Assembly: GCA_020356005.1 (NCBI GenBank)
Contig: CP070629.1
Coordinates: 1,981,490-2,030,188 of the forward strand
Direction: 5' to 3'
DNA from: Thermoplasmata archaeon
GTDB taxonomy: Archaea > Thermoplasmatota > Penumbrarchaeia > JAEHCK01 > GCA-020356005
DNA length: 48,699 nt
In this document: positions 15,875-44,775 of the stretch, in pieces
How the letters are laid out: every line of letters starts with the position of its first letter
How positions within the stretch are numbered: position 1 is the first letter of the stretch
The notes under the pieces: generated by a model
Database searches by the model: none
Told to the model about the DNA's origin: nothing
What the model saw: the letters and a program-made list of their open reading frames with translations, nothing else
Translations under genes and position numbers: made by a program

Positions 15875-16275
15875 CTGAATATGAATAAAATTGAGGGTTA
15901 TTAAATTTTGTGGATTAAGAAGGTAGCCGTTTGATGTTTATTCAGTTTAGGTTATTAATTAATTTGGATTTTTTTCCGAAAAATCATAATTTTGAGCTTT
16001 CAAAGAGATTTATAATGCACATTTTCATTTTTTTTCAACAGGTCGAACCTACCACTGATTTTTAATTTTGTAAGAATTATTCAATGATTTAAAACCGGCC
16101 AAAATTATATTAAAAGAATAGTCATCGAATTCAACTTAGGACAGCCATCAGTACAGAAACTTTTAATTACTAGTAAAATATAACGAGTGAACCACATATA
16201 ATTTACAGTATTTTTATTTATATAAAAGTATTAACATTACCATTAAATATTGCCCAAAAAATATTGGAGAATACA

Positions 16276-17256: not shown

Positions 17257-20200
17257 TTGGCAAAAAGTAGATTAGTAGTTGTATTTGTAACAATTGTATT
17301 GTTAATAACTGTCCTACCACCCTTTATCCCCGATGCACCGGTGAAAGGCGGTGTAACAAAATACGGTAACGGGGATCTGGAGGTAGACGGCGTAACACAT
17401 ACAATTGACATGGACGGCACTTATCAGCATGAAGGTAATCTGACCGTTATAAATAACGGGAAGCTTATAATCCGGGACACAATTTTTAACTTTTTAACAC
17501 CAAACTATGAGCGCCATATAAAAATAGAATCCGGCGGAACACTGTCCTTAGAAAATTCAACCATGACGGTTAATCTGGACTCTATCAACTTCCGGGAGAC
17601 GCTGGATATCGATGTAAGCGGCAATGGTAAGTTTGAAATGGTTGACTCATATCTTCTTTGTGACGGAATATTAGATGTGGATAACGGGAATGTCTACATA
17701 AGGGATTCTACTATAGCTAGAAATACCGACGATGGGGGGATAAATGATACCTGTGTGGATATTTCATTAAAATCTGCAAGTTATATGAAAATAACCGATT
17801 CCAAAATAAACGATTATCCTATATTGGCTAACATTACAATTGACGGTACTTCAACCTTCGTAGCAATAAACACCTATCTGGACATCGATTTTGAAAAGTT
17901 AAGTACAAAACCGAGCAGATTAGAGATTAAAGGAAGTGCAAAAGCCTATCTCTATGGTGTAACAACGGTTGAACCCACTAATTTTCCGCCCGATGCATCT
18001 GCAATTGCCATAACAGGGGCGAATGCTATTGCGGAGATATATAAATGGGTAGGCCTCAAGGTTGAAGACGCTGCAGGTATACCGGTTGGCGGGGCTTCCA
18101 TTACCGTTCGGAACCTTACTAAAAGCGAACCTGTAGGCACACCTCGCAGTGAAATTCTTGATTATATTGGTAGGACTTCCACAACGTGGAATGTAAGTGC
18201 TAAGGACGGTACTACTTATTTCCCGTTACGAACCAACATTCTCAGATATGGTGGAGGGGATCCGACCAATAATTATACCGGAACTTATAATGTAACCGCC
18301 GAGTTAGAATCTTATGAGCCCAAAGCCCAGGCAGGTTTGAGCTTCAGCAGTTATCCGCGTTTACTGGCAAGTGAGAATATAATAAACGCCACACTACTAT
18401 TTAGTGAAATTGTCCCACCGGATCTGAATAATCATTTTTCTGATCGTCCGCCAGTAAAAATAATGGGCAACACGAAATTTACCAAACCAGTGCAGATCCA
18501 GGAGAACATAATTATCGATGGCGGGACGCTGACTTTAGACGGTACTGATATGAAGTTTACCCAGGACGGCAGCGAAATGTTCTTTATATTCATCAAGAGC
18601 GGTGGAAAGCTCATTATTAAAGATTCTAATGTTTGGGATGCTAAAGGACTGGGATTTCCAATCTATAATTTTGGAGGTACAATAAGTGTATCCAATTCGA
18701 TCCTCAATAATAAAGGAACAATAATTGTACTCTCCGGGGGCGATTTGAATTTTGATGCCACAGATTTCACAGGCGATTTTTATGTAAAGAGCCAAGGTTC
18801 AAATGTGACCATCACAGATGACTCGTATCTGGAAACCAAGAAAGTAACATTTAACTCTGCAACAGTTAGAATAGAAGACACTATATTAAATGCAACAGAA
18901 CCTGTTAAAACAACTGATGTAATGTTCACTGCTATAAACACAAGTTTTACACATATTTTAGAATTCAACGGTAATAGTGAAGCAGAACTTATTAATGTCA
19001 ACAGTTCAAGCCTAAGTGTTAACGACAACTCAATAGTAGAACGAGGTTGGTGGTTAATAGCGAATGTCACCGATGGAGGCGACAATGCTGTACCCGATGC
19101 AACAGTCGATGTGTATAATTATACCCTTCCGGGCGGTGAACTGAAATTATACAGTAACGGAACCACCAAAGTAACCGGTCAGGCAATAATAAAAGTCATA
19201 GGTGAAATCATCACACCGACACAAACCCTGAAGGGCATAGAGCGCAGCTATTATCTGAATGCAACCTATAAAGAAAAAGAATATGTATCGGATTCAGAGG
19301 GTTTCTCATCACCATCAACGAATATTATGAAGAAGGTATCTTTCACACAACTACCTGATTTGAAGGTGGAGGGTCTGACCATCACCGGTGAGAGGACCGA
19401 AGGTAAAATGTTGAAATTCAAGGCCACCATCAAGAATATCGGAACATTTGAAGCCCGAGATATTACCGTTCGATTCCTGGTAGATAATGAGATGATAGTT
19501 GCCGATCAACCAATTGGATATCTGGAAAAGAATAAGGCAACATCGGTAGAAGCCCAATGGTCCGCCGAACTGGGAGAGTTCCCGGTATCGATTATGGTGG
19601 ACCCCACGGAATCCATTGGAGAAAGTGATGAATTTAATAATTATTATAATACCACTCTTGAGGTCCAGACTGGCGCACCTGATATTACAGTCCACGCCGG
19701 CGATATCAATTTCAATCCGGTGAAGCCTACACTGGAACAGACGATAAACATATCAATTGCTGTTGGCAACACCGGAGATACAAATCCAATACATTTCGAT
19801 GACAATGAAGTATATGTTGATCTATACCTGGGTGATGTGATACCGGCAAACAAGATCAAGAATACGACGACGATAACTTCCATCGAACCCAACAGTTACG
19901 CATATGTTTACGCCGAACTTACTTTCAATGTAACAGGTACCTATACAATCACAGCAATAGCAACAACCTCTCTTGACTCGGACATGACCAATAACATAGG
20001 TTCGGCCCAATTCACGGTATATGATTACGCAGATCTGATTTTAAAGGGTGTTGATATAACATTCTCTCCAGGTGCAGAGGTCGCAAAAGGGACCGAGGTT
20101 ACCATCTGGGCTGATGTATTAAATTATGGCGAATCTGCAGCACATAATGTTAAAGTGGAGTTCTACGAAGGCTCACCCGATGAAGGCTCAAGCACATTAC

Positions 20201-22809
20201 TTGGTTCTGATACCTTAGATATTGTTGAAGCGGGAGGCTCATCTGAAGCTCAATTTATATTTTCTCCATCAACTACCGGACCGCACAATATCTATGTAGT
20301 GGTTGATAGTATGAACACCACCAGGGAGCTCAGTGAAAAGAACAATGTGGCGAACAATACCTTGAGAGTATTGAAGGAGCCGGATCTTTATGTCGATCCA
20401 GCAAAGATATCGTTATACAGCAGTGTACCCGGCCATATTGTAGAGGACGAGATGATTACAATCACCGCCGATGTTGCAAATATCGGTGAGACCCCGGCAG
20501 AAAATTTCATGGTTCATTTCTATTACAAGAGCACCAAAACGGGACCAATAGGCACAGCTTCAGTAACAAAATTAATTGCAGGTAATACAACCACGGTAGA
20601 GATAAACTGGAATCCGCCGGAGGTGGGCTTGTTCAATATAATCGTCTGGGCGGATGCACTTCAGACTGTAGTTGAAGACAATGAGGAGAACAATCAGAAT
20701 ATCAAGATCATACAAGTTTACAGTAAGCCGGACCTTACCATGGACCCGGAGGACTTTACCACCGACATATCCGCGGATCCGGTTGTAGTTCCGTACTCAA
20801 AGGTAGTCAAGATCAACACTACGATTCGCAACCGCGGTGATACAGATTCGTCTTCATTCTGGGTACAGTTCTTCGACGGCAATCCTACCACCACCGGAAT
20901 CCAGATCGGGTTGAATAAACGGGTAGCCGGTATTCCCTCCGGCGAACTCCGGTCTGTAGAAATCGAATGGACTGCAATTCCAGGCGGTAATCACAATATC
21001 TATTTCCTTATAGATGCTTATAACGAAATCGAGGAGAGCAATGAAGGTAATAATTCCATGGTGTTAAACATTTATGTAGAAACAGTACCGGATCTCAAGG
21101 TTATGCCGGAGGATATCAACATCCTCGCGGGCGCTTATGGAAAGAAGGGTCAAGCCACCGATATTAATGTAACAATCCACAATGATGGTGATACTGATTC
21201 TGACGACTTCTATGCACAGTTCTTCCTCGGTGATCCGCTGCATGATACAACCTTTGAACTGCTTGAGAAGGTAAAAGTAACGGGAATTGCCGGCGGTATG
21301 GTAGGATACGCAGAGATAACCTGGACGCCAGAAGATTTCGGCATGCAGAAGATCTATGTGTGGGTCGATAGGGAAGAAACCATTTTCGAGCTCAGCGATA
21401 ACAATAATGTTGCAGGTAAAACATTTGAAGTACTGTTTTCAGCACCGGATGTTACGGCTTACGCAAATGAAATAAAGATTCTTGAAGCTGGAACAGAAAC
21501 ACAAGCAACATCCTATCAAACCGGCACCTCCTACATGTTTACCTTCAAAATCCATAATGTAGGCGATGAGACCATTACCGATTTCAATGTATCGGTTACT
21601 TACACCGGTCCGGGTGAAACTGGAGGGTTCTTGGGCGAAACTGAACATCAACTCATATCCAGTATAGAAACCAACTCCTTTGTTAACTTCGAAGAGGCCT
21701 GGACTCCAGCGTTTGATGGTTACTATGTATTTACAATAACTCTGGACAGTTCAGAACAATACCGGGAATATAACGAAACGGATAATATCATAACCACCGA
21801 ACCGTTGAAGGTAAATGTCAAACCCAATTTCTCCGTTATTAGAGCAAATGTTTTTATCTCGAACACAGAACCAAACATTGGCGAAATGGTAACAATCGAG
21901 ATCACTGTAACGGCTACGGGCAATTACTCAATAGGTGATCAAACACCGCCATTATCAATGACAATGACCGTTGATGGAACACCTCAGCCAACGGCAACTG
22001 CTACAATTACAAATGGACAAGCTGTCTTCACTTTTGAATGGACACCGGATACAGGGGGTTTCCCCATTCTTGAATTCACTATCAAACCTGATGACCGTAT
22101 AAAAGAAACCACAGATGCTGACAATACAGTGACTATAAATGATATCCTTGTCGGCGGTGCAGCCCAAGCAGACGATAAAGAGGAAGAGGGTTCCTCAATG
22201 ATGCTACTGATTATAATAATTATAATTATCATCGTGGTAATCGTGGTCCTGCTCCTTATAATGAAGAAGCGGAAAGGCAAGGAACCCATTGAATGTCCGG
22301 AATGCGGTGAAATGGTACCGGCAGGTGAAACGGAATGTCCGGAATGCGGTGCTGAAATTCTGCCACCGCCTGAAGAGGTGGAATGCAGTAAATGCGGTGC
22401 TTTGATAACAACGGAAGACGAGACCTGTCCGGAATGCAACGAGCCTAACGAGGCCTATGTGCCGCCGGTGGTAGGTGAAGGCGAGGAGGGAGTCGAAGGA
22501 GAGGTACCAGCTCCAGAAACACCCCAAGCTGTTCCTGGGGCGGCACCCAAGAAGGGTAGGAAACCCAAGGGAAAGGCGGCGGCGGCAGCCCCCGGGCCAA
22601 CACCCGCACCGGTACCACAGGCGGCTCCTGGTGCAGCACCGGCACCCGCGCCTGCCGCGCCCGGAATGCCTGAGGACGATCTGGCAGGCCTGGATGATAT
22701 AGAAATGATGGGAGAAGAAGGTGAAGGCGAAGCTGAATGTTATAAATGCGGCGCCCGTGTGCCTCTTTCCGTCCCGAAATGCCCCGTATGCGGTGCTGAT
22801 TTCGAATAA
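17257..22809 (+). CDS. giant type-I membrane surface protein GA1: signal/anchor, beta-helix-like repeats, 8 CARDB-like domains, TM, cytoplasmic tail with three zinc ribbons
   Basis: 1850 aa. TTG start preceded by GAGGTGG. N-terminal hydrophobic segment, then repetitive G-rich beta-strand motifs (NGKLIIRDTIFNF, GGTLSLENSTMTV, GGTLTLDGTDMKF). Eight units of about 110-120 aa begin with PDL/PDI/PNF and end in a ..NN.. motif. TM is MMLLIIIIIIIIVVIVVLLLIM. Ribbons are CPECG..CPECG, CSKCG..CPECN and terminal CYKCG..CPVCG. Confidence 0.85.
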   Translation: MAKSRLVVVFVTIVLLITVLPPFIPDAPVKGGVTKYGNGDLEVDGVTHTIDMDGTYQHEGNLTVINNGKLIIRDTIFNFLTPNYERHIKIESGGTLSLENSTMTVNLDSINFRETLDIDVSGNGKFEMVDSYLLCDGILDVDNGNVYIRDSTIARNTDDGGINDTCVDISLKSASYMKITDSKINDYPILANITIDGTSTFVAINTYLDIDFEKLSTKPSRLEIKGSAKAYLYGVTTVEPTNFPPDASAIAITGANAIAEIYKWVGLKVEDAAGIPVGGASITVRNLTKSEPVGTPRSEILDYIGRTSTTWNVSAKDGTTYFPLRTNILRYGGGDPTNNYTGTYNVTAELESYEPKAQAGLSFSSYPRLLASENIINATLLFSEIVPPDLNNHFSDRPPVKIMGNTKFTKPVQIQENIIIDGGTLTLDGTDMKFTQDGSEMFFIFIKSGGKLIIKDSNVWDAKGLGFPIYNFGGTISVSNSILNNKGTIIVLSGGDLNFDATDFTGDFYVKSQGSNVTITDDSYLETKKVTFNSATVRIEDTILNATEPVKTTDVMFTAINTSFTHILEFNGNSEAELINVNSSSLSVNDNSIVERGWWLIANVTDGGDNAVPDATVDVYNYTLPGGELKLYSNGTTKVTGQAIIKVIGEIITPTQTLKGIERSYYLNATYKEKEYVSDSEGFSSPSTNIMKKVSFTQLPDLKVEGLTITGERTEGKMLKFKATIKNIGTFEARDITVRFLVDNEMIVADQPIGYLEKNKATSVEAQWSAELGEFPVSIMVDPTESIGESDEFNNYYNTTLEVQTGAPDITVHAGDINFNPVKPTLEQTINISIAVGNTGDTNPIHFDDNEVYVDLYLGDVIPANKIKNTTTITSIEPNSYAYVYAELTFNVTGTYTITAIATTSLDSDMTNNIGSAQFTVYDYADLILKGVDITFSPGAEVAKGTEVTIWADVLNYGESAAHNVKVEFYEGSPDEGSSTLLGSDTLDIVEAGGSSEAQFIFSPSTTGPHNIYVVVDSMNTTRELSEKNNVANNTLRVLKEPDLYVDPAKISLYSSVPGHIVEDEMITITADVANIGETPAENFMVHFYYKSTKTGPIGTASVTKLIAGNTTTVEINWNPPEVGLFNIIVWADALQTVVEDNEENNQNIKIIQVYSKPDLTMDPEDFTTDISADPVVVPYSKVVKINTTIRNRGDTDSSSFWVQFFDGNPTTTGIQIGLNKRVAGIPSGELRSVEIEWTAIPGGNHNIYFLIDAYNEIEESNEGNNSMVLNIYVETVPDLKVMPEDINILAGAYGKKGQATDINVTIHNDGDTDSDDFYAQFFLGDPLHDTTFELLEKVKVTGIAGGMVGYAEITWTPEDFGMQKIYVWVDREETIFELSDNNNVAGKTFEVLFSAPDVTAYANEIKILEAGTETQATSYQTGTSYMFTFKIHNVGDETITDFNVSVTYTGPGETGGFLGETEHQLISSIETNSFVNFEEAWTPAFDGYYVFTITLDSSEQYREYNETDNIITTEPLKVNVKPNFSVIRANVFISNTEPNIGEMVTIEITVTATGNYSIGDQTPPLSMTMTVDGTPQPTATATITNGQAVFTFEWTPDTGGFPILEFTIKPDDRIKETTDADNTVTINDILVGGAAQADDKEEEGSSMMLLIIIIIIIIVVIVVLLLIMKKRKGKEPIECPECGEMVPAGETECPECGAEILPPPEEVECSKCGALITTEDETCPECNEPNEAYVPPVVGEGEEGVEGEVPAPETPQAVPGAAPKKGRKPKGKAAAAAPGPTPAPVPQAAPGAAPAPAPAAPGMPEDDLAGLDDIEMMGEEGEGEAECYKCGARVPLSVPKCPVCGADFE
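19351..22152 (+). other. array of 8 CARDB-like domains within GA1
   Basis: Units start at LPDLKVEG, APDITVHA, YADLILKG, EPDLYVDP, KPDLTMDP, VPDLKVMP, APDVTAYA and KPNFSVIR. Each has the ..V.N.G... and ..E.nE.NN signature. Confidence 0.75.
22198..22806 (+). other. GA1 TM helix plus cytoplasmic P/A-rich tail with zinc ribbons
   Basis: TM at 22198-22263 followed by KKRKGK (positive-inside). Cys pairs at 22294-22440 and 22738-22794. A P/A-rich tract (APAPAPAAPG) lies between them. Confidence 0.75.
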
Positions 22810-23129: not shown

Positions 23130-26100
23130 ATGAAGCAGCCTAAGTTTCATATAGGCGCACTGCGTAAAAGATTTTTCAATCGCGATACTCGTGCAGTAAC
23201 CGAGGCGCTGGGTACTGTATTTCTATTGGCGATATCTATCACTCTGGTTGGATTGGTATTTGTCTGGGTAAATTCGCTCGCCGATTTTGATGAAGGGCGG
23301 GCTCTGGCGGACCTGTCGATTTCTTACCAGGATGATGTCGTTTCAATCGAGCATAAAGGTGGGGAAGTACTGCAGGATGCCGAAACTGAGATTTTAATCC
23401 AGGTCGATACATATTTAACGCGTTACAGCATATCGGAATCAGAAGGAGACATGGCGGGAGATCTGGATTGGGGCCTTGGTGAAACCTGGAATAAAACTGT
23501 ATTATCAACACCAGACTCAGAGATCTATGTCGCTGTATATGATCTGAATACTAACACCAGGCTCATCGGCGAGACCGTCCAGGCCGGGGCAGGTAGAGCC
23601 CGGCTTGCTGACCTTTCGGTTCTGGCCGAAAATATCACATTTGAATTTTCAGGTGCTAATATCAGGAAAGATGATCTTGTCAATATAACCGTCAGGGTCA
23701 CCAATGAGGGCAGTGCGAATGCATATTACGTGCTCGTAAGATTTTATGACGGTGCCAATATAATCAGGAAGAACAACAGGGAATACCAGCTGGTTAATGT
23801 AACCGCCGGCGGCTATAATACAACCTGGATACACTGGTATCCCGATTCGTACGGACTTCATACCATTCATGTAAAGGTTTTCTATGAGTTCGGCGAGATT
23901 AATTATGCAAATAACTATGCCGAAAAGAACGCCAATGTGGAGGTTATTTTGCCGGAGGTGCACGGCTCCGACATGAAAATCACAACTTATGATATTCTTT
24001 TTGATAACAGCAACCCGACGCACGGTGCACTGATAAAGGTTACCATTCTGGTACATAACGAAGGAGACCGGGCGGTCACCGCGAAGGACGGTGCAACCCT
24101 GATCGTGCGCGATACACCGATTACGTGGAATCCCATCGATCCCCTTGCCGATAAGCCGGTCTATACCGACGGGGTGCATTTGAATAAAACCTTTTACAAT
24201 GTAACAATCCCGGTTTCAGGCTATACGCCGTATTCATTCTGGTGGAGCGCTATGCCAGGCGGAACCGTTCTGATATACGCCTTTGTGGATGCCAACAACA
24301 CCGTCATGGAAACCGAGGATACCAACGGGCTGTACGAGAGCAACAATCTCGCAATTCGTGCAATACAGATCCTGCCGAAGATTGTTCTCGTGGACGACGA
24401 CGGTGCTTCGGCAGGCAGCTTCGACGTCACATCCACCATGCGAGATTCTCTGACAGCATCCGGTGTGGTGTACGATAATCATTATGTAATAGGCTCGGAC
24501 GATCCTGCCTACGATACCGGCAGCCATCCGCTGAAGGATTACGATATTATTATCTGGATGACCGGCTACAATACAAACACGCTTACCCCAGCCAATATTG
24601 AAGCTATAAAAAGTGCAATGAAGAACGGCACGTACTTGTGGATGATATCGCAGGACGTTTTAAATGATACCGTAGCAACGCAGGGCGATCCCGTGGCCGG
24701 TGAGTTCGCATATGACTTCCTAGGTGTGGATGAATATACAATGACCGGCACACCTGTAGAATTATACGGTGTGCCCGGTGATGTGATTACAAACGGAACC
24801 TTGCTTAATACCACCGGTATTTTGCGTGGACAGGACAGAGGTGTCAATATTTCGGCCTTCAAATCCGATACATTAAAGGAGGATGTGAACGGAATTTTAT
24901 ACAATACAGTTGCACTGGGTCAGGACGGTAATATGTCTGTACGTTATTACAATGCCACCCACGACTTTAAGGTTGTATATTTCGGCTGGGAATTCGCATC
25001 GCTGGTTGATCCCACCGACCGTGCCGACCTGACTTTCAAGGTCCTACAGTGGTTCAACTGGACCATCTTACTCGGTACTGATTTCGCTATCGCCTCAGAG
25101 AAATTTTCGACCTTAACACCGCGCTATCTGGACAGGCTGGAGATCAACGCAACTGTCCGTAACAACGGTGCGGACACCGCTACCGTTGATGTGGCGTTTT
25201 TCCTGACAGGCCCTGACGGGGAGGAGGAACTCATTCCCAAATTCCCCGACAACCAGGCGAATCCTTATTCCATTACAATACCCGGTAACGGCGGCGAAGT
25301 CACCGTTGGCAAACAGTGGCTGGCCGTTTCTGTGGGGCTGCATAATTTCCGTGTGATGGTGGACCCGTACGATCTGGTTGACGAAGTTTCCGAGGCCAAC
25401 AACGATATTTCATACAGCAATCTTGCAGTTACCCAGCTGTTAATTCAATATACCATACTGGTGGTGGACGACGACAACAGCACCAATAACGGCGGGTTCC
25501 ATCCGAATGCCACAGCAGCTGTAACTACGGCGCTTGACAACATCGATTACCCCTTCGACTTCAGATCAGTAACCGGCGGTTTATCACCCGGGAACGGACC
25601 CACGGTGGATGTAATGAAGCATTACAACACCGTGATCTGGATAACCGGTAATGATACCGGTCCGACGCTCAACGGCAGCGACCAGCAAAATATCGTTGAA
25701 TACATTCGCGGTCTTTATTTTGAAGCGCAGTATTTGACAGACATTAAGGTGAACCTCTGGTTGATCGGCCAGCACATCCTGGAGGATCTTACGGTTACCA
25801 ACGCTACATTCATATCAGAAATCCTGCGGGTTTCGTCATTTACCTCCGATACAGGCATGCCCTCCACGCTGTACGGTGTTTACGATGATATAATCACCCA
25901 CGGGATACAATATGACACAAACACGCTCTATTCAGACTACGGCGATACGATTACACCAGGCGAAAATGCAACAGGAATTTTATACCAATCCCGTCTCGCA
26001 GGGACGTATAATTCTTTGAGATTTAACGATACCGAGCACCGGCTGATTTTCATGCCGTGGATTTATGATTTTATATCTACTCCGGCAGGCTTCCCCAGCG

Positions 26101-35077: not shown

Positions 35078-35081
35078 AAGA

Positions 35082-36347: not shown

Positions 36348-36386
36348 GTCTGGTATATTATATGGAAGTAGAATGTATAAATAAAG

Positions 36387-37790: not shown

Positions 37791-38084
37791 GTTTATATAA
37801 CCGTAGTCACTAATACAAGATAATACCACCGTAAAGTATATAATACGAAAAATATTACTCTTATATTCCTAGAATTAAATAGACATTATTATATATAATT
37901 CATAGTAAGGTGTGAATATATAGAACTGGATGAATTGACTGAATACAAGGAAATAATAAATAAGTAACAAGGGGGCAAGTAAGGAGAGCAGCTGATTTTT
38001 CCCTATAATGATTAATCCCTTGCATCTTAAATGAGGTTCGAGACCATAGAGCTGTTTTACAGAAGCGGAAAGGAGAACTTGAAA

Positions 38085-41000
38085 ATGGTGAAATTCCGAG
38101 GTCGCAAAATAGGAGAGATATCCCAGCGATTAATAACAGTTTTTGTTATCAGCTTGCTTTTTGTCAGCTTGACGGAATTTATCGGATTTGAGCCTGTGGA
38201 GGGCGAAGTCAAAGAGGATTCGTATGGTAACTTATTGATCGACGGCGGGTCCGTTCATGAGATAAACATGGGCGGGGGCACCTATCAGATGCAGGGCAAT
38301 ATTACAGTAACTGGGGCAGGAAGCACTTTATTGATCCGCAACACCACCATGAAGTTTTTAAAGGGCGCCGGATTTAAATATCACATCGATGTAAAAGATG
38401 GAGCTTTGCTGCAAATCAAGAACTCCGAAATAACCGTTGACCTAACAGCGGGGGGTTCCGAAGAGCGGGTTGATTTTTTTATTACAAATTCAGATTTTAT
38501 CATGGAAAATTCCTCTATTAAATTACCCGGGGAGTTCCATGCAAGTTCCAGCAATATCACATTCAATTACAGCTTGTTATCTAAAAACCCCTCTGGCGGG
38601 TCAGTAACCCACAGCCTGGTTTTGAATTTTACAGATTGTAATGTTCTTATGGTCGAACATATGATATACAATTTCAAAAGCGGTGAGGACATCTATCTCA
38701 GGGGAACGACAAATTTTTCAGCCATAAAATCCGAATTGAACCTGACATCTTCAAATACGCTTCAATTGCACGACAATGCTACCGCAAAACTTTACAGCAT
38801 TTCCGTTACTTCCAAAACAAGTAATAGTGTAATTTCAATCCAATCATCTTATGCCTACGCAGAAATATTCCGGTTATTAACTCTTGATGTCACTGATGTT
38901 ACGGAAGTACCTGTGGGAGGTGCACTTGTCACTCCCAGGAATTACAGTAATAAGAAAATGGCACCTCTACCCGCCGAAGAAATCCTGACTTATTTAGACA
39001 GGACGATCGGTAATTACAATATCACTGATTACCTTGGCCGGGTTATACTCCCGCTGCGGTCTGATAATATCACAGATATAGGGATCGAATATACAGGTAA
39101 TTATCTGCTGGATGTTGAATTATCATCATATTCCGTGGAGGGTGGGTACAGCCTGAAGCCCTTTCCAAACTTTTATAATATTTATAATAATCCGTACCAT
39201 GCCTTGAGCTTCGGTTCTCAAATACCTCCAGAGCTCAACGGGCATTATTCCAAGGCCCTACCGCCGCTCACGATAACAAAACCGGTCACATTCAATTCAC
39301 CACTGCAGCTTCAGCAGAACCTTATCATCGACGGCGGTACATTAACGGTTACCGGAACGGATCTTGAGATGAACCAGTCGGCTACCAACCGTTTCTATAT
39401 ACTTCTGAAAAACGGCGGTAAGCTGAACCTTATCAAATCCAAATTATCAGATCCCGGCAACTGGCCGCTGAATGTTTATACCATGGATTCAAGCGAGATA
39501 ATGGTTCGGACCAGCACGTTGAATCTTGGCAGTGGAATCCTCAGCCTCCGTAACGGCTCAAAATTGGAAATGAATGCATCCTCCATGGTTGGCAGTATAA
39601 ATTCCATCGGGCCCGGTAATACAATTTTAATCGAGGAGGACAGTTCGGTTGCTTCTAAAAACATGGTTCTTGTGAAATCCGATGTTACTCTGAAAGATGT
39701 TTCGATAACAACTGTCGGATCCATTCGCACTGAGCAGCTGCAGTTCACCGTAAAAAATACCACGTTCAACAAACCTTTGACTTTCAAGAGCGACTCGAAA
39801 GCTTACCTTACAAATGTAACATTTTCCGGTGTACCTTCACCCACTATAACAATCAAGGATACAAGCGAGGTCCATGTAAACTGGTGGCTGACTGTACGGG
39901 TAGTCGACGGCGGTAAAAATTTACTGGAGAAAGCCACGGTGCATCTCTACAACTACTCCCTATCGGGTGACAAACTTCATTACGGCGACAGCGAGACCGA
40001 TGCATCGGGCCTAGCACTTTTTGAAGTTTACAGCGAGATGCGCAATGCCAGCGGGTCGTACAAGGGAATCGAGCGCAATTACTACCTGAATGCAACTTAT
40101 CGCAGTGCAAAAAGCAACAGTCTGGGCACACCACCGTTAACCGCGAATAAACTGATGGAGCTGGAATTTGATCTCGCTGCAGATTTGAAACTGGCGGATA
40201 TCGATGTAGTGGGCAACCTGTTCGCAGGCAACAATCTTATGATCAATGCCACTGTTACCAATGTGGGTGATTTCGATCTGAACACAACCGAAATAGCCAT
40301 CCGCTTCGAAATCAACGGTATTGCACTCGGAACAGATGAAAAGCTGGACAGGCTGAGCGTGGACGAAAGCGCAGTTGTCAACAAGAATTGGGTTGCTTCG
40401 TTGGGGACGCATATTATCAATGTCACTGTGGATCCTTCCGATAAAATCGGCGAGAAAAACGAGAGTAATAACAAATTGACTACAATTGAAACCATATCGG
40501 TTTCGGGCCCGGACCTCGGGTTGAGTACAACAGATATCGAATTCGACCCGGGTGTACCCACTAAAGGAACAAATTTAACGGTAACGGCAAAGATAACCAA
40601 TTACGGCGGGTACGACCCTGCAGATAACGGCGATCCAATAACTGTAAAGTTTTACCTTAACGACCCCGCATTAATCGGTACACAGATAGGTGAAACGCAG
40701 ACGGTCGACTCCATACCGCCCACAACTTCTAGAACAGTCCAGATAAATTATACGATCCCCATGGAGGGTAATTATAATATATTTGTAGTGGTTGAAACGC
40801 CATTCGACAGCTCTCTGGCGAACAATAAGGTCAACCGTACCCTTATCATCTATACCCTCCCGGACCTTTACATTTCGAACACTGACATAACATTTACATC
40901 AACCTCCGATTTTATAGTGGAATCACCTGTGTTTATCAGAGCGGTGCTCCGCAATATCGGCGGGACCGCCGTGGATAATGTAGGTGTCGCATTCTACGAC

Positions 41001-44000
41001 GGCGACCCGAACTCGGGCGGTTTCCGAATCGGATTCAATACCACAATCGAGCCAGTAGAGGCCAACGGAGGCACGGTGAATGCCCAGATAGAATGGACGC
41101 CGCTGACCACCGGCACGCACCGCATATTTATTTTAATCGATCCTGACGGGCTTGTACAGGAGGCAAAGACCAGCAACAACATCGCGAATGTTTCCATTGA
41201 TGTCATTCCCAAGCCCAATTTGTATGTTGAAACCAGCGACATACAATTCTCGGCGAACCCCATCATGGAGGGCGAGCCGCTGAACATTCAGGTCCTCATA
41301 CATAATGACGGCGAGGTTAACGTTGGGTCTGTTACCATCAGGGTGACGCTGGACTCACTGGACAGCACCGCAATTGTTCCGGATATACAAATCGTAAGCG
41401 TCCCTGCAAACGGTTATTTCAATTTGCCGATAACATGGCCTTCGGCGGAACCCAACGGAACGCACAGCATTTATATCTGGATAGACCCGAACAACAAAAT
41501 CCCGGAGTCCAACAAGTTCGATAATTACGCATCCAAAACCCTTATAATAACGAAGACGATTGACCTCCGCATTACTGCTGATGATATTTATTTTAATGAT
41601 GCTTCGAACTCCACCGATATCGAATATGGCAAAGAGCTGAAAATAACCGCCAGGGTATGGAACGACGGCGGTTCACCTACAATCTCCGAGTTCATCGTGC
41701 AGTTTTATCTTATAACCAACGAAGGTGAGACGCAGCTGGGCTCAGACCAAACCGTGCCGACCATTCAGCCCGCCGGCTATGCCGACGTAAATTTAACATG
41801 GATCGCAAATCTCAGCGGCACGCACACGATCCAGGTGCTTGTGGACCCCTCGGGACTGGTTTTGGATTCCAACCGCGTCAATAACAAGGCGAGCAAGGAC
41901 TTCAAGGTAAACGATCCGCCCGACTTTGCGGTCACAGTGGAAGCTGCATTGTTTTCCACTGGTGCCACTGTGAAAGCCGGTGAGGCCATCACCATAACCG
42001 CAATGGTGCAGAACCGCGGTGATACCGGCTGGGGGCCGGTGGAGGTGATGTTCCACGACGGCGATCCCACAGATACGATAAACCCGTCCAAGCAAATAGG
42101 TACAACAAAACTCATAGAGTATCTTCAACCGCACGGTCAGCAGGAGATCAATACCAGCTGGACGGCCGAAGTCGAGGGTGAGCATCAAATATATGTCAGT
42201 GTAGATTTTAAAGAGAAGGTCCCTGATTCGGACAGGAGAAACAATCTGGATTTCGGTATAATAGAAGTGCTGACGCACGCACCGGATCTTAATCTAACGA
42301 AAATCGAGTACAGTCCCACATCAGTAACCGAAGGCGATCTGGTTTACATCAATATAACCATCCAGAACATCGGTAATATAGATGCCACCTCGGTGGTTAT
42401 CGGTTTATACAAGGACGATTATAAAAATGATAATTATATGATAGACCAGTTCGCCATGGGTAATATTTCGGTTGGTGAATCGGTAATATATAATTATGAA
42501 TGGACCGGAGCGGTTGCAGAGGGGCATTACGAGCTTTACATTGTCCTGGACCCGTTCAATACGATCAAGGAGTTCAATGAGCGTAATAATGTCAACGAGG
42601 ACAATCCCATAGAGATCGGAGTGGAAGGAGCGCAAAAGTGGCCGGATCTTAAGTTCGAAGATACCGAAAGCTGGATTATAATATCACCCTCAAAACCGCG
42701 GGTGGACGAATTAGTAGTTTTCTCAATTTACATAATCAATGTGGGCGATGTGCTCATACGAGATGTTATCGTGGTTTTGAAAAACGGCGACGAGGAGCTC
42801 GCCAGGTCGGAAATACTGGAGACTCTGGATAAACAGGAAACTGAAATCATGGAGATAACCTGGGTACCTGACAAAAAAGGAACCTTTACACTTACATTCG
42901 AGATAATCACATCGAACAATATCGAAGAAATCACAGATGAAAATAATATTAAGGATTACACGGTGAATGTGGCCGAATCAGAAGATGATAGTGATGACGT
43001 AAGCTCGCTGTTCGGCGCTGCAATCGCCACTGTTGTAATGATTGTGATTTTGGTTGTTATCGTTTTGCTGTTGATCGGCAGCAAGCGGAGAATAACGGAG
43101 TGGGCAGAATGCAGTGAATGCATGGAAAAAATGCCGCTTGAAGCATCCATATGCCCAAGCTGCGGTGCAGAATTTTCTGATGAGATGGAGTGCGGTGAAT
43201 GCCACAGCCTCATATCCGTTGAAGATACACGCTGTCCCAACTGCGGCGCTGCATTTATAGAGGATATGGAGGGGAGGAAGAAGTCGTTTCTGGGTATCGG
43301 TGAAGGACGCGTCGAGGAAGCCCCGGAGACCGCTGATCTGAGCGGCCCGGCGCCTATCGAAACCATAGATGAGGATACTATCCAGGACGCAGAAGAGATA
43401 GAGGAAGATATGCTTGATGTGGATTATGATGAGCCGGTAGTACCGCCGGCCCCGCCTGTACCGAAGGAGAAGCCCAAGAAAGTAAAGAAGGAGAAGGAAG
43501 AGGAAGAGCTGGAGAAAAAGGAGAAAGAGGAGGAAGAAGAGGAAGAGGAGAAAGAGAAGAAGGAGGAGAAGGAGGAGAAGGAGAAAGAGGAGGAAGAAGA
43601 AGAGGAGGGAGAAATCGAGCTTGACGACGAGGAATTCCAGGAATTCGAAAAGGCGCTTGACGAAGAGGAAATCGAAGAGCTCGAGGAGGCTCCCGGGGCA
43701 GGATTGGAAGCCGAGGCAGGAGATGAGGGCAGGAAGAAAGAGAAGAAAAAGAAGCTGAAGAAGCACAAGAAGGGCCGGCCGGCGGATAAGGGCGCAAAAA
43801 AGGAAGAGAAGAAGCCGTCAGAAGTAAAAGAGGCGGTGGAGAAGAAGGAACCGGAAAAGAAGGACGAAAAGGAAAAGGAGAAAGAGGAAGAGAAGAAGGA
43901 GGAAGAGGAAGAGAAGGATGATTTTGTCATTCCGGATGCGAAGTGGACCGCCGAATGCTATAAATGCAATGCAAGAATCCCCTTATCGGCTTCAAAATGT

Positions 44001-44027
44001 CCCGAGTGCGGCGCAGAGTTTGAGTGA
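38085..44027 (+). CDS. giant type-I membrane surface protein GA2 (paralog of GA1): beta-helix-like repeats, 8 CARDB-like domains, TM, cytoplasmic E/K-rich tail with three zinc ribbons
   Basis: Same architecture and order as GA1. AAGGAG lies 8 nt before ATG 38085; the longest ORF starts at 38031. Signal/anchor is LITVFVISLLFVSL. TM is AAIATVVMIVILVVIVLLLIG. Ribbons are CSECM..CPSCG, CGECH..CPNCG and terminal CYKCN..CPECG. Confidence 0.85.
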   Translation: MVKFRGRKIGEISQRLITVFVISLLFVSLTEFIGFEPVEGEVKEDSYGNLLIDGGSVHEINMGGGTYQMQGNITVTGAGSTLLIRNTTMKFLKGAGFKYHIDVKDGALLQIKNSEITVDLTAGGSEERVDFFITNSDFIMENSSIKLPGEFHASSSNITFNYSLLSKNPSGGSVTHSLVLNFTDCNVLMVEHMIYNFKSGEDIYLRGTTNFSAIKSELNLTSSNTLQLHDNATAKLYSISVTSKTSNSVISIQSSYAYAEIFRLLTLDVTDVTEVPVGGALVTPRNYSNKKMAPLPAEEILTYLDRTIGNYNITDYLGRVILPLRSDNITDIGIEYTGNYLLDVELSSYSVEGGYSLKPFPNFYNIYNNPYHALSFGSQIPPELNGHYSKALPPLTITKPVTFNSPLQLQQNLIIDGGTLTVTGTDLEMNQSATNRFYILLKNGGKLNLIKSKLSDPGNWPLNVYTMDSSEIMVRTSTLNLGSGILSLRNGSKLEMNASSMVGSINSIGPGNTILIEEDSSVASKNMVLVKSDVTLKDVSITTVGSIRTEQLQFTVKNTTFNKPLTFKSDSKAYLTNVTFSGVPSPTITIKDTSEVHVNWWLTVRVVDGGKNLLEKATVHLYNYSLSGDKLHYGDSETDASGLALFEVYSEMRNASGSYKGIERNYYLNATYRSAKSNSLGTPPLTANKLMELEFDLAADLKLADIDVVGNLFAGNNLMINATVTNVGDFDLNTTEIAIRFEINGIALGTDEKLDRLSVDESAVVNKNWVASLGTHIINVTVDPSDKIGEKNESNNKLTTIETISVSGPDLGLSTTDIEFDPGVPTKGTNLTVTAKITNYGGYDPADNGDPITVKFYLNDPALIGTQIGETQTVDSIPPTTSRTVQINYTIPMEGNYNIFVVVETPFDSSLANNKVNRTLIIYTLPDLYISNTDITFTSTSDFIVESPVFIRAVLRNIGGTAVDNVGVAFYDGDPNSGGFRIGFNTTIEPVEANGGTVNAQIEWTPLTTGTHRIFILIDPDGLVQEAKTSNNIANVSIDVIPKPNLYVETSDIQFSANPIMEGEPLNIQVLIHNDGEVNVGSVTIRVTLDSLDSTAIVPDIQIVSVPANGYFNLPITWPSAEPNGTHSIYIWIDPNNKIPESNKFDNYASKTLIITKTIDLRITADDIYFNDASNSTDIEYGKELKITARVWNDGGSPTISEFIVQFYLITNEGETQLGSDQTVPTIQPAGYADVNLTWIANLSGTHTIQVLVDPSGLVLDSNRVNNKASKDFKVNDPPDFAVTVEAALFSTGATVKAGEAITITAMVQNRGDTGWGPVEVMFHDGDPTDTINPSKQIGTTKLIEYLQPHGQQEINTSWTAEVEGEHQIYVSVDFKEKVPDSDRRNNLDFGIIEVLTHAPDLNLTKIEYSPTSVTEGDLVYINITIQNIGNIDATSVVIGLYKDDYKNDNYMIDQFAMGNISVGESVIYNYEWTGAVAEGHYELYIVLDPFNTIKEFNERNNVNEDNPIEIGVEGAQKWPDLKFEDTESWIIISPSKPRVDELVVFSIYIINVGDVLIRDVIVVLKNGDEELARSEILETLDKQETEIMEITWVPDKKGTFTLTFEIITSNNIEEITDENNIKDYTVNVAESEDDSDDVSSLFGAAIATVVMIVILVVIVLLLIGSKRRITEWAECSECMEKMPLEASICPSCGAEFSDEMECGECHSLISVEDTRCPNCGAAFIEDMEGRKKSFLGIGEGRVEEAPETADLSGPAPIETIDEDTIQDAEEIEEDMLDVDYDEPVVPPAPPVPKEKPKKVKKEKEEEELEKKEKEEEEEEEEKEKKEEKEEKEKEEEEEEEGEIELDDEEFQEFEKALDEEEIEELEEAPGAGLEAEAGDEGRKKEKKKKLKKHKKGRPADKGAKKEEKKPSEVKEAVEKKEPEKKDEKEKEKEEEKKEEEEEKDDFVIPDAKWTAECYKCNARIPLSASKCPECGAEFE
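40176..42969 (+). other. array of 8 CARDB-like domains within GA2
   Basis: Units start at AADLKLAD, GPDLGLST, LPDLYISN, KPNLYVET, TIDLRITA, PPDFAVTV, APDLNLTK and WPDLKFED. Confidence 0.75.
43008..44024 (+). other. GA2 TM helix plus cytoplasmic zinc-ribbon / E-K-rich tail
   Basis: TM at 43008-43079 followed by SKRR. Two ribbons follow immediately, then an E/K low-complexity tract, then the terminal ribbon. Confidence 0.75.
43461..43920 (+). repeat. near-homopurine GAA/GAG/AAG low-complexity tract encoding the E/K-rich tail
   Basis: About 460 nt dominated by A/G on the plus strand, e.g. gaggaagaagaggaagaggagaaagagaagaaggaggagaagg. Confidence 0.8.
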
Positions 44028-44151: not shown

Positions 44152-44775
44152 ATGGAACCCTACCTCGTTATAGTTTTAACAATTTTTATCCTAATAGTGC
44201 TTCTTATAATTTATCAGATTTACCGCTGGTATCAACTCTATTTGCGTGCGCAGGAATACAAGAGCCCCGGTGGGGGTACCAAAGTCTTGAAAAAGCCTGT
44301 TCCAAGGTACCAGCTTGTGTACGGCAGCAGCTATCTACTTTTAGAAGATAAATCGGTGGAAAGCTTCAAGTTATTTTCAAGCTACATATCGCAGGGCAGC
44401 AAAGGGCTGCTTATAACGCGCATTTTCCCGGCAAAGGTTCGCAAGCAGTATAATCTCGGTAATACACCTGTACTGTGGCTCAGCCGCACGCAGGAGGGCA
44501 AGGCGATAAATCCCACGAACCTGGGCGTGCTGGTGGAGGAGGTACGGGAATACATAAAGAAGAACCGTAAAACGATAATACTGCTGGACGGATTGGAATA
44601 CCTAATAATCGAGAACGATTTCGAGCGTGTACTGAAATTTATCAACAGCCTTGAGGATGAGATCGCTCTCCATAATTCAAGACTGCTGGTGTCTGTTAAC
44701 CCGAAAGTTCTAGACCCTGAGAAAAAGGCACTACTTGAAAAGACTTCAAAGGTGCTAGTGGGAGATGAGAAATAG
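44152..44775 (+). CDS. DUF835-family membrane-anchored protein
   Basis: N-terminal TM (LVIVLTIFILIVLLIIYQI), then GLLITRIFP..VLWLS....INPTNL......IILLDGLEYLIIENDFERVLKFINSLED. These match the DUF835 pattern as I recall it. Confidence 0.7.
   Translation: MEPYLVIVLTIFILIVLLIIYQIYRWYQLYLRAQEYKSPGGGTKVLKKPVPRYQLVYGSSYLLLEDKSVESFKLFSSYISQGSKGLLITRIFPAKVRKQYNLGNTPVLWLSRTQEGKAINPTNLGVLVEEVREYIKKNRKTIILLDGLEYLIIENDFERVLKFINSLEDEIALHNSRLLVSVNPKVLDPEKKALLEKTSKVLVGDEK

What the first reader, a model, noticed from the sequence alone, without database searches (positions are those of the whole stretch)
22198..22806. Surface giants end in cytoplasmic tails with three zinc ribbons; the terminal ribbon is conserved between GA1 and GA2 at protein level but not at DNA level
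- **Seen in sequence:** after a single TM helix with positive-inside residues, both proteins carry two CxxC-x(9-13)-CxxC ribbons. A low-complexity spacer follows (P/A-rich in GA1, E/K-rich in GA2), then an almost identical C-terminus. GA1 ends AECYKCGARVPLSVPKCPVCGADFE* and GA2 ends AECYKCNARIPLSASKCPECGAEFE*.
- **DNA versus protein:** the codons differ at many synonymous positions. Compare gaatgttataaatgcggcgcccgtgtgcct with gaatgctataaatgcaatgcaagaatcccc.
- **Inference:** this points to purifying selection rather than recent gene conversion. A conserved intracellular zinc-ribbon peptide on an extracellular adhesin-like giant suggests coupling to a cytoplasmic partner, for anchoring, signalling or assembly. 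The partner is unknown.
Basis: partly seen in the sequence, partly recalled or inferred. Interest (0 to 1): 0.68.

Follow-up and report, generated by a model that had tools for sequence, protein, structure and literature searches.

The report
Conserved zinc-ribbon tail on archaeal surface giants
Two huge archaeal surface proteins end inside the cell in a flexible tail tipped by a tiny, strongly conserved zinc-binding knob, and gene neighbourhoods suggest (but do not prove) that the knob docks onto a membrane-bound KaiC-type ATPase pair encoded next door.

Summary
GA1 (17257-22809) and its 30%-identical paralog GA2 (38031-44027) share one plan: signal/anchor, about 1,600 aa of beta-helix-like head plus CARDB repeats, one TM helix, two CxxC-x10-CxxC ribbons (Pfam DZR), a disordered 93/230-aa spacer, and a third C4 ribbon ending exactly at ...CGA[DE]FE-COOH.

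The terminal 25 residues are the best-conserved window of the whole alignment (19/25). Synonymous sites there are saturated, so this is purifying selection, not gene conversion. Orthologs at 49-59% identity keep 24/25.

A profile search finds the same C-terminal ribbon on dozens of Thermoplasmatota CARDB giants. Other lineages (marine group II, soil) use the same tail plan with their own terminal ribbon.

New here: in 7 independent loci, a giant with this ribbon is followed directly by a membrane-anchored DUF835 (inactivated KaiC), and in at least 4 of them by a KaiC-like ATPase. One natural protein fuses DUF835 to this ribbon.

- **Best reading (about 0.45):** a tethered docking knob for that ATPase module.
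- **Main rival:** cytoskeleton docking, as in Haloferax CdpC.

The domain families are known. The conserved tail module and its gene linkage look new.

The parts
17257..22809 (+). GA1 gene (1850 aa): N-terminal hydrophobic signal/anchor, about 700-aa beta-helix-like head, 7 CARDB repeats, TM helix, three-ribbon cytoplasmic tail
   Evidence: ORF list. Pfam CARDB 277.9 bits, DZR 32.5 bits against a cut-off of 27.3. Orthologs P0002 and P0003 at 52% and 49% identity.
22189..22263 (+). GA1 TM helix (GSSMMLLIIIIIIIIVVIVVLLLIM), followed by the basic stop-transfer KKRKGKEP (22264-22287)
   Evidence: Hydropathy 4.25. AF2 helix with pLDDT about 95. Coordinates.
22288..22452 (+). GA1 double zinc ribbon: R1 at 22288-22362, R2 at 22378-22452, each CxxC-x10-CxxC
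   Evidence: Pfam DZR PF12773, residues 1680-1728. AF2 pLDDT 89-96. pN 0.12-0.23 among orthologs.
22453..22731 (+). GA1 disordered A/P/G-rich spacer (93 aa). It contains a conserved basic patch and an acidic segment just before R3.
   Evidence: Composition. AF2 pLDDT 43-53. Spacer length in the core GA families is 57-230 aa, median about 88.
22732..22806 (+). GA1 terminal C4 ribbon R3 (AECYKCGARVPLSVPKCPVCGADFE-COOH). The stop codon is at 22807-22809.
   Evidence: Best-conserved 25-aa window of the GA1/GA2 alignment. 24/25 identical in orthologs. pN 0.035-0.088 with saturated pS. AF2 pLDDT about 92.
38031..44027 (+). GA2 gene (1998 aa), a paralog of GA1 with the same architecture (8 CARDB repeats)
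   Evidence: BLASTP 30% identity over 1803 aligned positions. Pfam CARDB, DZR and Zn_Ribbon_1. Ortholog in L122 with R3 24/25 identical.
42999..43259 (+). GA2 TM helix (42999-43082), KRRITEW, then the double zinc ribbon: R1 at 43104-43178, R2 at 43185-43259
43260..43949 (+). GA2 E/K-rich low-complexity spacer (230 aa)
   Evidence: Composition E 77, K 46, D 18.
43950..44024 (+). GA2 terminal C4 ribbon R3 (AECYKCNARIPLSASKCPECGAEFE-COOH)
   Evidence: Pfam Zn_Ribbon_1, residues 1976-1996.
44152..44775 (+). TM-anchored DUF835 (inactivated KaiC-like domain), 125 bp downstream of GA2. Candidate partner of the tail.
   Evidence: Pfam DUF835 125.6 bits. Found directly downstream of giants carrying this ribbon in L122/123, L124/125, L126, L127, L095 and L129. 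Described as iKaiC in PMC5847659.
45227..45946 (+). KaiC-like single-domain ATPase with a conserved variant P-loop, G[ST]PGTMKS[ST]. Third member of the conserved trio.
   Evidence: Pfam KaiC 136.7 bits. 89% identical in L122 and 55% in L124/L126, always after DUF835.

Best explanation
**What it is (shown).** GA1 and GA2 are single-pass, membrane-anchored surface giants of a Thermoplasmatota archaeon.
- The ectodomain is a beta-helix-like head followed by a CARDB stalk.
- The only cytoplasmic part is a modular tail: a membrane-proximal double zinc ribbon (DZR) 7-8 residues after the TM helix, a disordered low-complexity tether of about 60-230 aa, and a 25-residue C4 zinc ribbon that ends the protein at ...CGA[DE]FE-COOH.
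- The terminal ribbon is the most strongly constrained piece of the whole protein. It is shared, at 75-96% identity, by paralogs and orthologs that are otherwise 25-59% identical.

**How it most likely works (inferred).**
- The terminal ribbon is a tethered docking knob. It would bind a conserved cytoplasmic partner, and the flexible spacer sets its search radius under the membrane.
- The best candidate partner is the module encoded directly downstream of GA2 and of related giants elsewhere: a TM-anchored inactivated-KaiC domain (DUF835), which would pair with the adjacent KaiC-like ATPase.
- Docking would couple the state or clustering of the extracellular giant to a KaiC-type ATPase signalling hub, or the reverse.
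- GA1 has no DUF835 gene of its own. It would use the same partner as GA2. That would explain why the two paralogs keep the same knob while everything else has diverged.
For: **Anatomy and topology**
- establish the parts and their order.
- AF2 gives a confident TM helix, confident R1-R2 and R3 (pLDDT 89-96), and a disordered spacer (pLDDT 43-53).

**Constraint**
- R3 is the top 25-aa window of the GA1/GA2 alignment.
- R3 pN is 0.035-0.088, against 0.27-0.34 for the ectodomain and 0.12-0.23 for R1/R2. pS is saturated.
- Across 39 distinct tails, mean pairwise identity is 0.64 for R3, 0.55 for R1 and 0.47 for R2.

**Positional constraint**
- 25 of the 27 hits with E<=1e-10 in 1.84 billion representatives carry the ribbon at the exact C-terminus.

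**Gene linkage**
- A giant with this ribbon is followed by DUF835 in 7 independent loci: window GA2, L122/123, L124/125, L126, L127, L095 and L129.
- Across these loci DUF835 is 45-83% identical to the window protein (L129 not compared) and the flanking genes differ.
- A KaiC-like ATPase follows DUF835 in the window, L122/123, L124/125 and L126.

**Geometry**
- DUF835 has essentially no extracellular part. Any direct contact with the giant must therefore go through the TM helices or the tail.

**Fusion**
- P0112 is TM + DUF835 (47.8 bits, cut-off 33.1) + AECYQCGAIVKLTNDKCPECGAAFE-COOH.

**Literature**
- DUF835 is an inactivated KaiC-like domain (PMC5847659).
- KaiC-family ATPases are predicted regulators of archaeal surface-filament loci, usually without a known second component (PMC4858521).
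Against: - No binding has been shown. Gene adjacency links the giant to DUF835/KaiC, not specifically the terminal ribbon to them.
- The GA1 group (window, L001, L002), L088 and L161 have no DUF835 directly downstream.
- The marine group II and soil families have the same tail plan but no DUF835/KaiC within the DNA held. A more universal partner is therefore possible.
- The DUF835-ribbon fusion is a single protein on a 3.2-kb contig. None of the 38 closest DUF835 homologs carries a ribbon.
- R3 lies close to the generic Zn_Ribbon_1 consensus. It is 17/25 identical to an unrelated R1.
Confidence: 0.45

Rival explanations
1. Cytoskeleton docking, as in CdpC. The terminal C4 ribbon binds a cytoskeletal polymer (FtsZ, CetZ or similar). 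This would tether the surface giant to the cell's internal scaffold. DUF835/KaiC would be only a regulator encoded nearby.
For: [quoted passage not shown] That ribbon binds FtsZ1 directly (Kd about 1.3e-7 M) and loses binding when a zinc cysteine is mutated.
- The same paper reports remote multi-zinc-ribbon relatives in all classes of Thermoplasmatota (bioRxiv 10.64898/2026.07.16.738847).
- The GA tail has the same three-part logic.
- The tail plan also occurs in marine group II and soil families with no DUF835 nearby. This fits a universal partner.
Against: - R3 gives no hit to DUF7093, the CdpC family, even at E<=10.
- The CdpC C-terminal domain is 43 aa, with three strands after the finger. 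R3 is 25 aa.
- No cytoskeletal gene lies in any of the neighbourhoods read.
- This reading does not explain the giant->DUF835 adjacency or the DUF835-ribbon fusion.
Confidence: 0.2
2. Tail-tail association. The ribbons mediate homo- or hetero-oligomerisation of giants (GA1 with GA2, or R3 with the DZR). This would cluster them into patches or a lattice without a separate partner.
For: - Two paralogs in one cell keep the same knob.
- The R3 consensus (AECYxCGAxVPLSAxxCPxCGAEFE) resembles the family R1 consensus (AECSECGAxxPxDATxCPxCGAEFS). R3 therefore looks like a duplicated R1 and could pair with it.
- A long flexible tether suits interactions in trans.
Against: - AF2 folds each ribbon as a self-contained intramolecular C4 unit with high confidence.
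- Self-association does not explain the conserved DUF835/KaiC neighbours or the presence of the ribbon on a DUF835 protein.
Confidence: 0.12
3. No specific partner. R3 is a generic zinc-ribbon cap, for example protecting the disordered tail from C-terminal degradation. Its apparent conservation reflects how few positions are free in a 25-residue C4 fold that sits near the family consensus.
For: - R3 scores best to generic models only: Zn_Ribbon_1 at 24.4 and 21.0 bits, DZR and UPF0547.
- Unrelated ribbons already share 8-12/25 residues, and one pair shares 17/25.
- Ribbons ending in ...CGxxFE-stop occur in many bacteria and archaea.
Against: - R1 and R2 have the same fold and length but accept 2-4 times more replacements.
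- The non-ligand residues of R3 (A-E before the first Cys, Y/F, P-L-S, F-E-COOH) are invariant or nearly so across proteins that are 25-30% identical.
- The exact C-terminal placement is kept in more than 40 cluster representatives.
Confidence: 0.1
4. Nucleic-acid or ribosome contact. The ribbon would act like the zinc-binding ribosomal protein eL40 or a DNA/RNA-binding finger, helped by the basic patch in the spacer.
For: - JGI labelled a 43-aa C-terminal fragment 'ribosomal protein L40E'.
- Archaeal eL40 chains appear in the PDB profile search, aligned over the whole ribbon.
- GA1-type spacers hold a conserved K-rich patch.
Against: - The eL40 matches have E-values of 0.09-5, which is not significant.
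- No Pfam L40e hit at E<=10.
- The ribbon and its flank are acidic (EEGEGEAEC..., ...DFE).
- No nucleic-acid-related neighbours are conserved.
Confidence: 0.03

Closest known systems
Membrane proteins with Pfam DZR (PF12773) / Zn_Ribbon_1 (PF13240) cytoplasmic zinc ribbons
   Same: R1-R2 of GA1 and GA2 score above the DZR gathering cut-off (32.5 and 32.7 bits against 27.3). R3 matches Zn_Ribbon_1 at about the cut-off. The unit is CPxCG-type C4 with a 10-residue spacer.
   Different: These Pfam families are generic and carry no assigned function. New here are the fixed three-part tail (DZR, disordered tether, a third ribbon placed exactly at the C-terminus ending FE-COOH), its place on CARDB giants, and its much stronger constraint than the DZR in the same proteins.
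CdpC (HVO_0399, DUF7093), the FtsZ1 membrane anchor of Haloferax volcanii (bioRxiv 10.64898/2026.07.16.738847)
   Same: [quoted passage not shown]
   Different: CdpC is a small peripheral protein held by an amphipathic helix, not the tail of a 1,850-aa surface protein. Its C-terminal domain is 43 aa. R3 gives no DUF7093 hit. The partner here is unknown, and gene context points to DUF835/KaiC, not FtsZ.
Archaeal KaiC-like ATPase / inactivated-KaiC (DUF835) signalling modules (Makarova, Galperin and Koonin 2017, from my own knowledge; Galperin et al. 2018, PMC5847659)
   Same: The window encodes a TM-anchored DUF835 and a single-domain KaiC-like ATPase. These are the kind of pair proposed to act as signal-transduction hubs with variable input components.
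   Different: I found no description of a giant CARDB surface protein with a zinc-ribbon tail as the conserved upstream neighbour or input of such a pair. The linkage shown looks unreported in the papers I could search.
Zn-ribbon proteins in archaeal type IV pilus loci (arCOG07264, arCOG06883/TackOD1; PMC4858521, PMC5847659)
   Same: These are cytoplasmic or membrane zinc-ribbon proteins, with KaiC-family ATPases, encoded beside surface-filament genes. The window also has pilin-type giants and pilin-like DUF7289 proteins between GA1 and GA2.
   Different: Those are separate small proteins with N-terminal or multi-Cys domains, found in Sulfolobus and Thaumarchaeota. Here the ribbons are the C-terminal tail of the surface protein itself. 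No pilus ATPase or platform gene lies in the window.
Integrin beta-tail / talin type coupling in animals (analogy only, from my own knowledge)
   Same: A large adhesive ectodomain, a single TM helix and a short conserved cytoplasmic motif that recruits an intracellular machine.
   Different: No homology. The motif here is a folded zinc ribbon on a long disordered tether, and the candidate partner is a RecA-fold ATPase ring.

Membership tests
Pfam DZR (PF12773), double zinc ribbon | Profile score at or above the gathering cut-off over two consecutive C4 ribbons | tested here: met
   GA1 scores 32.5 bits (residues 1680-1728) and GA2 32.7 bits (1694-1739). The cut-off is 27.3.
Pfam Zn_Ribbon_1 (PF13240), for the terminal ribbon | Profile score at or above the gathering cut-off (25 bits) | tested here: inconclusive
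   GA2 whole protein scores 25.2 bits with its best stretch at 1976-1996. The R3 peptides alone score 24.4 and 21.0 bits. R3 is a generic C4 ribbon at the threshold.
CARDB (PF07705) surface proteins | Repeated CARDB domains above the cut-off | tested here: met
   GA1 has 7 stretches (277.9 bits). GA2 has 8 stretches (255.6 bits).
CdpC / DUF7093 | Sequence membership in DUF7093 | tested here: not met
   DUF7093 is absent from the complete hit lists for both R3 peptides at E<=10.
CdpC / DUF7093 | Architecture: membrane-proximal Zn ribbon, long disordered linker, C-terminal C4 ribbon | tested here: met
   AF2 confidence profile and composition, compared with the description of CdpC.
CdpC / DUF7093 | The C-terminal ribbon binds FtsZ | not testable with these tools
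   No multimer prediction or binding assay is available. No FtsZ gene lies in the window.
Ribosomal protein eL40 (label given by JGI to fragment P0008) | Significant match to eL40 profiles or sequences | tested here: not met
   No Pfam L40e hit at E<=10. PDB eL40 chains score E 0.09-5. P0008 is the cut C-terminus of a GA1 ortholog.
LysW-type carrier proteins (zinc ribbon plus C-terminal Glu) | Zn_ribbon_LysW profile above the cut-off, plus an acidic EDWGE-type tail | tested here: not met
   17.1 and 18.2 bits against a cut-off of 27. The PDB match covers only the CPxCG knuckle.
DUF835 (iKaiC) + KaiC-like ATPase module | Both profiles above the cut-off, in adjacent genes | tested here: met
   DUF835 scores 125.6 bits (cut-off 33.1). 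KaiC scores 136.7 bits (cut-off 26.6). The same pair follows related giants in L122-L126.
DUF835 (iKaiC) + KaiC-like ATPase module | Physical interaction with the giant's tail | not testable with these tools
   Only gene adjacency (7 loci) and one fusion protein (P0112) bear on this.

The most novel reading that the evidence does not exclude
The terminal zinc ribbon is the missing input component of an archaeal KaiC-type signalling hub. By docking onto a membrane-anchored inactive-KaiC/KaiC-like ATPase pair, it would physically couple a giant adhesin-like surface protein to an ATPase switch. That would make a prokaryotic counterpart of adhesion-receptor signalling, with one shared knob serving several paralogous giants in the same cell.
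Probability: 0.3. Interest if true: 0.75.

Novelty: new variant of a known kind. Interest (0 to 1): 0.55.

Why it matters
**Open questions it touches**
- Archaeal KaiC-like ATPases are abundant, yet their inputs are mostly unknown.
- Many Thermoplasmatota lack a rigid wall, and how they connect surface structures to the cell interior is also unknown.

**What this finding offers**
- It gives a concrete, testable handle: a 25-residue zinc-dependent peptide, conserved across proteins that otherwise share only 25-30% identity.
- That peptide is genetically tied to a two-gene ATPase module.
- If the docking is real, it defines a new way for archaea to wire giant extracellular proteins to cytoplasmic machinery.
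- It would also extend the principle just shown for CdpC (a terminal zinc ribbon on a disordered tether acting as a protein-docking device) from cell division to the cell surface.

**Annotation**
- Public annotations of these proteins should be corrected. Current labels include 'subtilase', 'ribosomal protein L40E' and 'FlaH'.

Tried and rejected
- **Word-indexed search with the terminal-ribbon profile.** The second found only one 43-aa fragment. The exhaustive representative search was needed.
- **eL40 lead from the JGI label.** Rejected: no Pfam hit and non-significant PDB E-values.
- **LysW lead (ribbon plus C-terminal Glu).** Rejected: only the CPxCG knuckle matches.
- **Context of the DUF835-ribbon fusion P0112.** The contig is only 3.2 kb and uninformative.
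- **Ribbon domains in close DUF835 homologs.** None among 38, so the fusion is rare.
- **DUF835/KaiC near the marine group II and soil tail-plan families.** None found by tblastn or by HMMs built here. The blocks held are only 8-20 kb.
- **More distant DUF835 proteins (35-37% identity).** They sit in other contexts (REC-DUF835 and others) with no giant nearby.
- **Taxon of the window by exact-sequence look-up of four housekeeping proteins.** Not found, probably because the start codons differ. The lineage is inferred from homolog sources: Thermoplasmata and Thermoplasmotota MAGs.
- **Makarova et al. 2017 (PMC5717392).** Not held. It is cited from my own knowledge and through PMC5847659.
- **tRNA scan of the window.** None found.
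- **Gene conversion as the cause of GA1/GA2 terminal identity.** Rejected.

Full report

Yes. The window (48.7 kb, 45% GC) is archaeal (TruD, NOG1-type GTPase, DUF63, archaeal pilin N-termini). It carries four ORFs of 1,850-2,018 aa.

Each has one strongly hydrophobic segment near residue 1650-1685, followed by K/R residues and then 12 cysteines arranged as three C4 units.

All six units are CxxC-x10-CxxC, not x9-13. Pfam calls residues 1680-1728 (GA1) and 1694-1739 (GA2) a Double Zinc Ribbon above its cut-off. It calls the ectodomains 7-8 CARDB repeats. The spacers are A/P/G-rich (93 aa) and E/K-rich (230 aa).

**2. Is the terminal ribbon more conserved than chance or fold would give?**

- GA1 and GA2 are 30% identical over about 1,800 residues.
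- In a sliding 25-residue window over the whole alignment, the last 25 residues rank first: 19 identities, against a median of 7 and a 99.9th percentile of 17.
- The other two ribbons have the same fold and length but share only 12 and 10 of 25. Non-corresponding ribbons typically share 8-12.
- At the DNA level the terminal segment with its stop codon (78 nt) is 65% identical. Twelve of the 19 identical residues use different codons, and the longest exact run is 9 nt.
- Nei-Gojobori counts give pS = 1.0 and pN = 0.16 for R3. The ectodomain has pN 0.49 and R1/R2 have 0.36.

Gene conversion is excluded. This is purifying selection on the peptide.

**3. Orthologs**

GA1 orthologs at 52% and 49% identity (P0002 and P0003, in syntenic loci L001 and L002) keep 24/25 residues of R3. 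They keep 17-19 of R1 and 18-20 of R2. A GA2 ortholog (L122, ectodomain 59% identical) keeps 24/25.

In every orthologous pair, R3 pN is 0.035-0.088 with saturated pS. The ectodomain has pN 0.27-0.34.

**4. A wider family**

A profile of the terminal ribbon was searched against 1.84 billion cluster representatives. It gave 211 hits at E<=1e-3 and 27 at E<=1e-10. Of those 27, 25 carry the ribbon at the exact C-terminus.

The full-length members are 1,750-5,800-aa proteins with the same head, the same CARDB stalk, a TM helix, R1, R2, a spacer and R3. The consensus ending is [AVI]EC[YF]xCG[AS]x[IV]P[LIV]SAxxCPxCGA[EDV]FE-COOH.

Across 39 distinct tails, mean pairwise identity is 0.64 for R3, 0.55 for R1 and 0.47 for R2. 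The spacer in the core GA families is 57-230 aa and rich in E, A, P, K and G.

Source names and a DNA-pattern scan of species-representative genomes place the family in Thermoplasmata/Thermoplasmatota MAGs (L088, L095, L113).

The same tail plan, with lineage-specific terminal ribbons, occurs in three other groups:
- About 940-aa CARDB proteins of marine group II Poseidoniales, ending ...AECGACGAxIPxxAxxCxxCGA[KE]FE*.
- About 1,130-1,400-aa proteins from soil and peat metagenomes, ending ...CPFCGAVTQ*.
- Thermoplasmata proteins whose third ribbon is followed by a basic tail (P0004, P0005).

So 'TM, DZR, linker, third ribbon' is a recurrent cytoplasmic module of Thermoplasmatota surface giants.

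**5. Topology and structure**

The N-termini have a basic n-region and a hydrophobic core. The ectodomains carry 31 and 37 N-x-S/T sequons and only 2 and 1 cysteines. The tails carry no sequons and 12 cysteines each. K/R residues follow the TM helix.

AlphaFold2 on the GA1 tail, with a 16-sequence alignment, gave:
- a confident TM helix;
- confident R1-R2 and R3 hairpin units (pLDDT 89-96);
- a spacer at pLDDT 43-53, meaning disordered.

All of this places the tail in the cytoplasm. It has not been shown experimentally.

**6. What could it bind? Gene context**

GA2 is followed after 125 bp by a TM-anchored DUF835 protein and then by a single-domain KaiC-like ATPase. DUF835 is described as an inactivated KaiC-like domain (PMC5847659).

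I looked up contigs encoding DUF835 homologs and scanned all fetched loci with HMMs built here. A giant ending in the GA-type ribbon lies directly upstream of DUF835 in the following loci:
- L122/L123: DUF835 83% identical to the window protein; KaiC-like ATPase 89%.
- L124/L125, L126 and L127: DUF835 45-48%; KaiC-like ATPase 55% in L124/L126. The surroundings are quite different (ThrRS and a KaiC+DUF7504 protein upstream, FBP aldolase downstream).
- L095: a genome-representative Thermoplasmata MAG; DUF835 48%.
- L129: a 2,942-aa giant. Here DUF835 is followed by two Ras-like GTPases.

The tails were verified.

More distant DUF835 proteins (35-37% identity) sit in other contexts. One natural protein, P0112, is TM + DUF835 + AECYQCGAIVKLTNDKCPECGAAFE-COOH.

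DUF835 has practically no extracellular part. Any direct contact with the giant must therefore go through the TM helices or the tail, and the best-conserved tail element is R3.

GA1 is followed by pilin-type giants, not by DUF835. If GA1 and GA2 share one partner in the cell, that would explain why the two paralogs retain the same knob.

**7. Mechanism proposed**

- *Shown:* the anatomy, the constraint, the family, the predicted topology and the gene linkage.
- *Inferred:* R3 is a tethered docking knob on a flexible leash. It docks onto the membrane DUF835/KaiC-like ATPase module, coupling the giant to a KaiC-type switch.
- *Supporting literature:* KaiC-family ATPases are predicted regulators of archaeal surface-filament loci, usually with no known second component (PMC4858521).

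I put this at about 0.45.

**8. Rivals**

[quoted passage not shown] That ribbon binds FtsZ1 at about 0.13 uM and depends on its zinc ligands. Remote multi-ribbon relatives are reported in all Thermoplasmatota classes. The logic is the same, and it would suit the families without DUF835 neighbours. However, R3 does not match DUF7093, and no cytoskeletal gene is linked.
- (b) *Tail-tail clustering.*
- (c) *A generic cap with no partner.* This is argued against by the 2-4-fold faster replacement in R1/R2 and by the invariant non-ligand residues.
- (d) *eL40-like or nucleic-acid binding.* There is no significant similarity.

**9. Comparison with the known, and novelty**

The domains are members of known, functionally unassigned families (DZR, Zn_Ribbon_1, CARDB, DUF835, KaiC).

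Three things appear unreported in the literature I could search:
- the fixed tail module with a third ribbon at the exact C-terminus;
- its status as the most constrained part of these giants;
- its conserved linkage to a DUF835/KaiC-like pair.

I rate it a new variant of a known kind, of moderate interest. It turns a vague 'partner unknown' into a two-candidate, directly testable question.

**10. Limits**

- No interaction has been tested.
- Contexts are limited to 8-20 kb.
- The organism of the window was not identified directly.
- The single fusion protein is weak evidence on its own.

Noticed in passing
window 23130-28970, 29021-35077, 35055-37370: Between GA1 and GA2 lie two further giants (1946 and 2018 aa). 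They have archaeal type IV pilin N-termini (Pilin_N), CARDB, and VWA or MAM-like domains. Two pilin-like DUF7289 proteins follow. The order GA1 -> pilin giant -> pilin giant is conserved in L001 and L002. No pilus ATPase or platform gene is in the window.
   Followed up: partly
window 46391-46828 (-): A 145-aa ORF with no Pfam match ends in another C4 motif (CKSCNGPLTFVQQYQKWYCYTCQKYA*). It lies just downstream of the KaiC-like gene, on the opposite strand.
   Followed up: no
window 45227-45946; L122, L124, L126: The KaiC-like ATPase has a conserved unusual P-loop, G[ST]PGTMKS[ST], with Met where the canonical GxxxxGK[ST] has Gly. It is identical in all four orthologs compared. Whether the protein hydrolyses ATP is unclear.
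   Followed up: partly
L124 2022-4235; L126 2116-4314; L127 1771-3954: In the lineage with the AECYRCGAIVPLSA... ribbon, a roughly 730-aa protein lies directly upstream of the giant. It has a C-terminal KaiC + DUF7504 region and an uncharacterised N-terminal region of about 490 aa. The giant is thus flanked by KaiC-family genes on both sides.
   Followed up: no
L129 11421-12667: After the 2,942-aa giant and its DUF835 come two tandem Ras/Rab-like small GTPase genes instead of a KaiC-like ATPase. Another surface giant follows on the opposite strand.
   Followed up: no
L012 and about 35 other Poseidoniales loci; L130-L158: Marine group II archaea and soil/peat Thermoplasmatota have their own CARDB proteins with the same tail plan but different, family-specific terminal ribbons (...CGAKFE*, ...CPFCGAVTQ*). 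In the marine group II family the 'linker' holds conserved motifs and may be partly folded.
   Followed up: partly
window 16264-16974: A 236-aa membrane protein with no Pfam match and an A/E/K-rich segment lies directly upstream of GA1. It is conserved in the same position in L001 and L002 (41-49% identity).
   Followed up: partly
window 5894-6286; L126 10911-11285: A '23S rRNA-intervening sequence protein' (PF05635) gene is in the window. In L126 a gene of the same family is inserted between DUF835 and the KaiC-like ATPase. It is possibly a mobile or defence-related four-helix-bundle gene.
   Followed up: no
P0002, P0008, P0169, P0185 (public annotations): Source annotations look wrong. A GA1 ortholog is labelled 'subtilase family serine protease'. 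Its cut C-terminus is labelled 'ribosomal protein L40E'. DUF835 homologs are labelled 'archaellum biogenesis ATPase FlaH'.
   Followed up: yes
window 44152-44775 versus P0167: The source genome's gene call for DUF835 (162 aa) omits the N-terminal TM helix. Orthologs of 205-218 aa cover 98-100% of the 207-aa ORF. The longer, membrane-anchored form is therefore likely the real one.
   Followed up: partly
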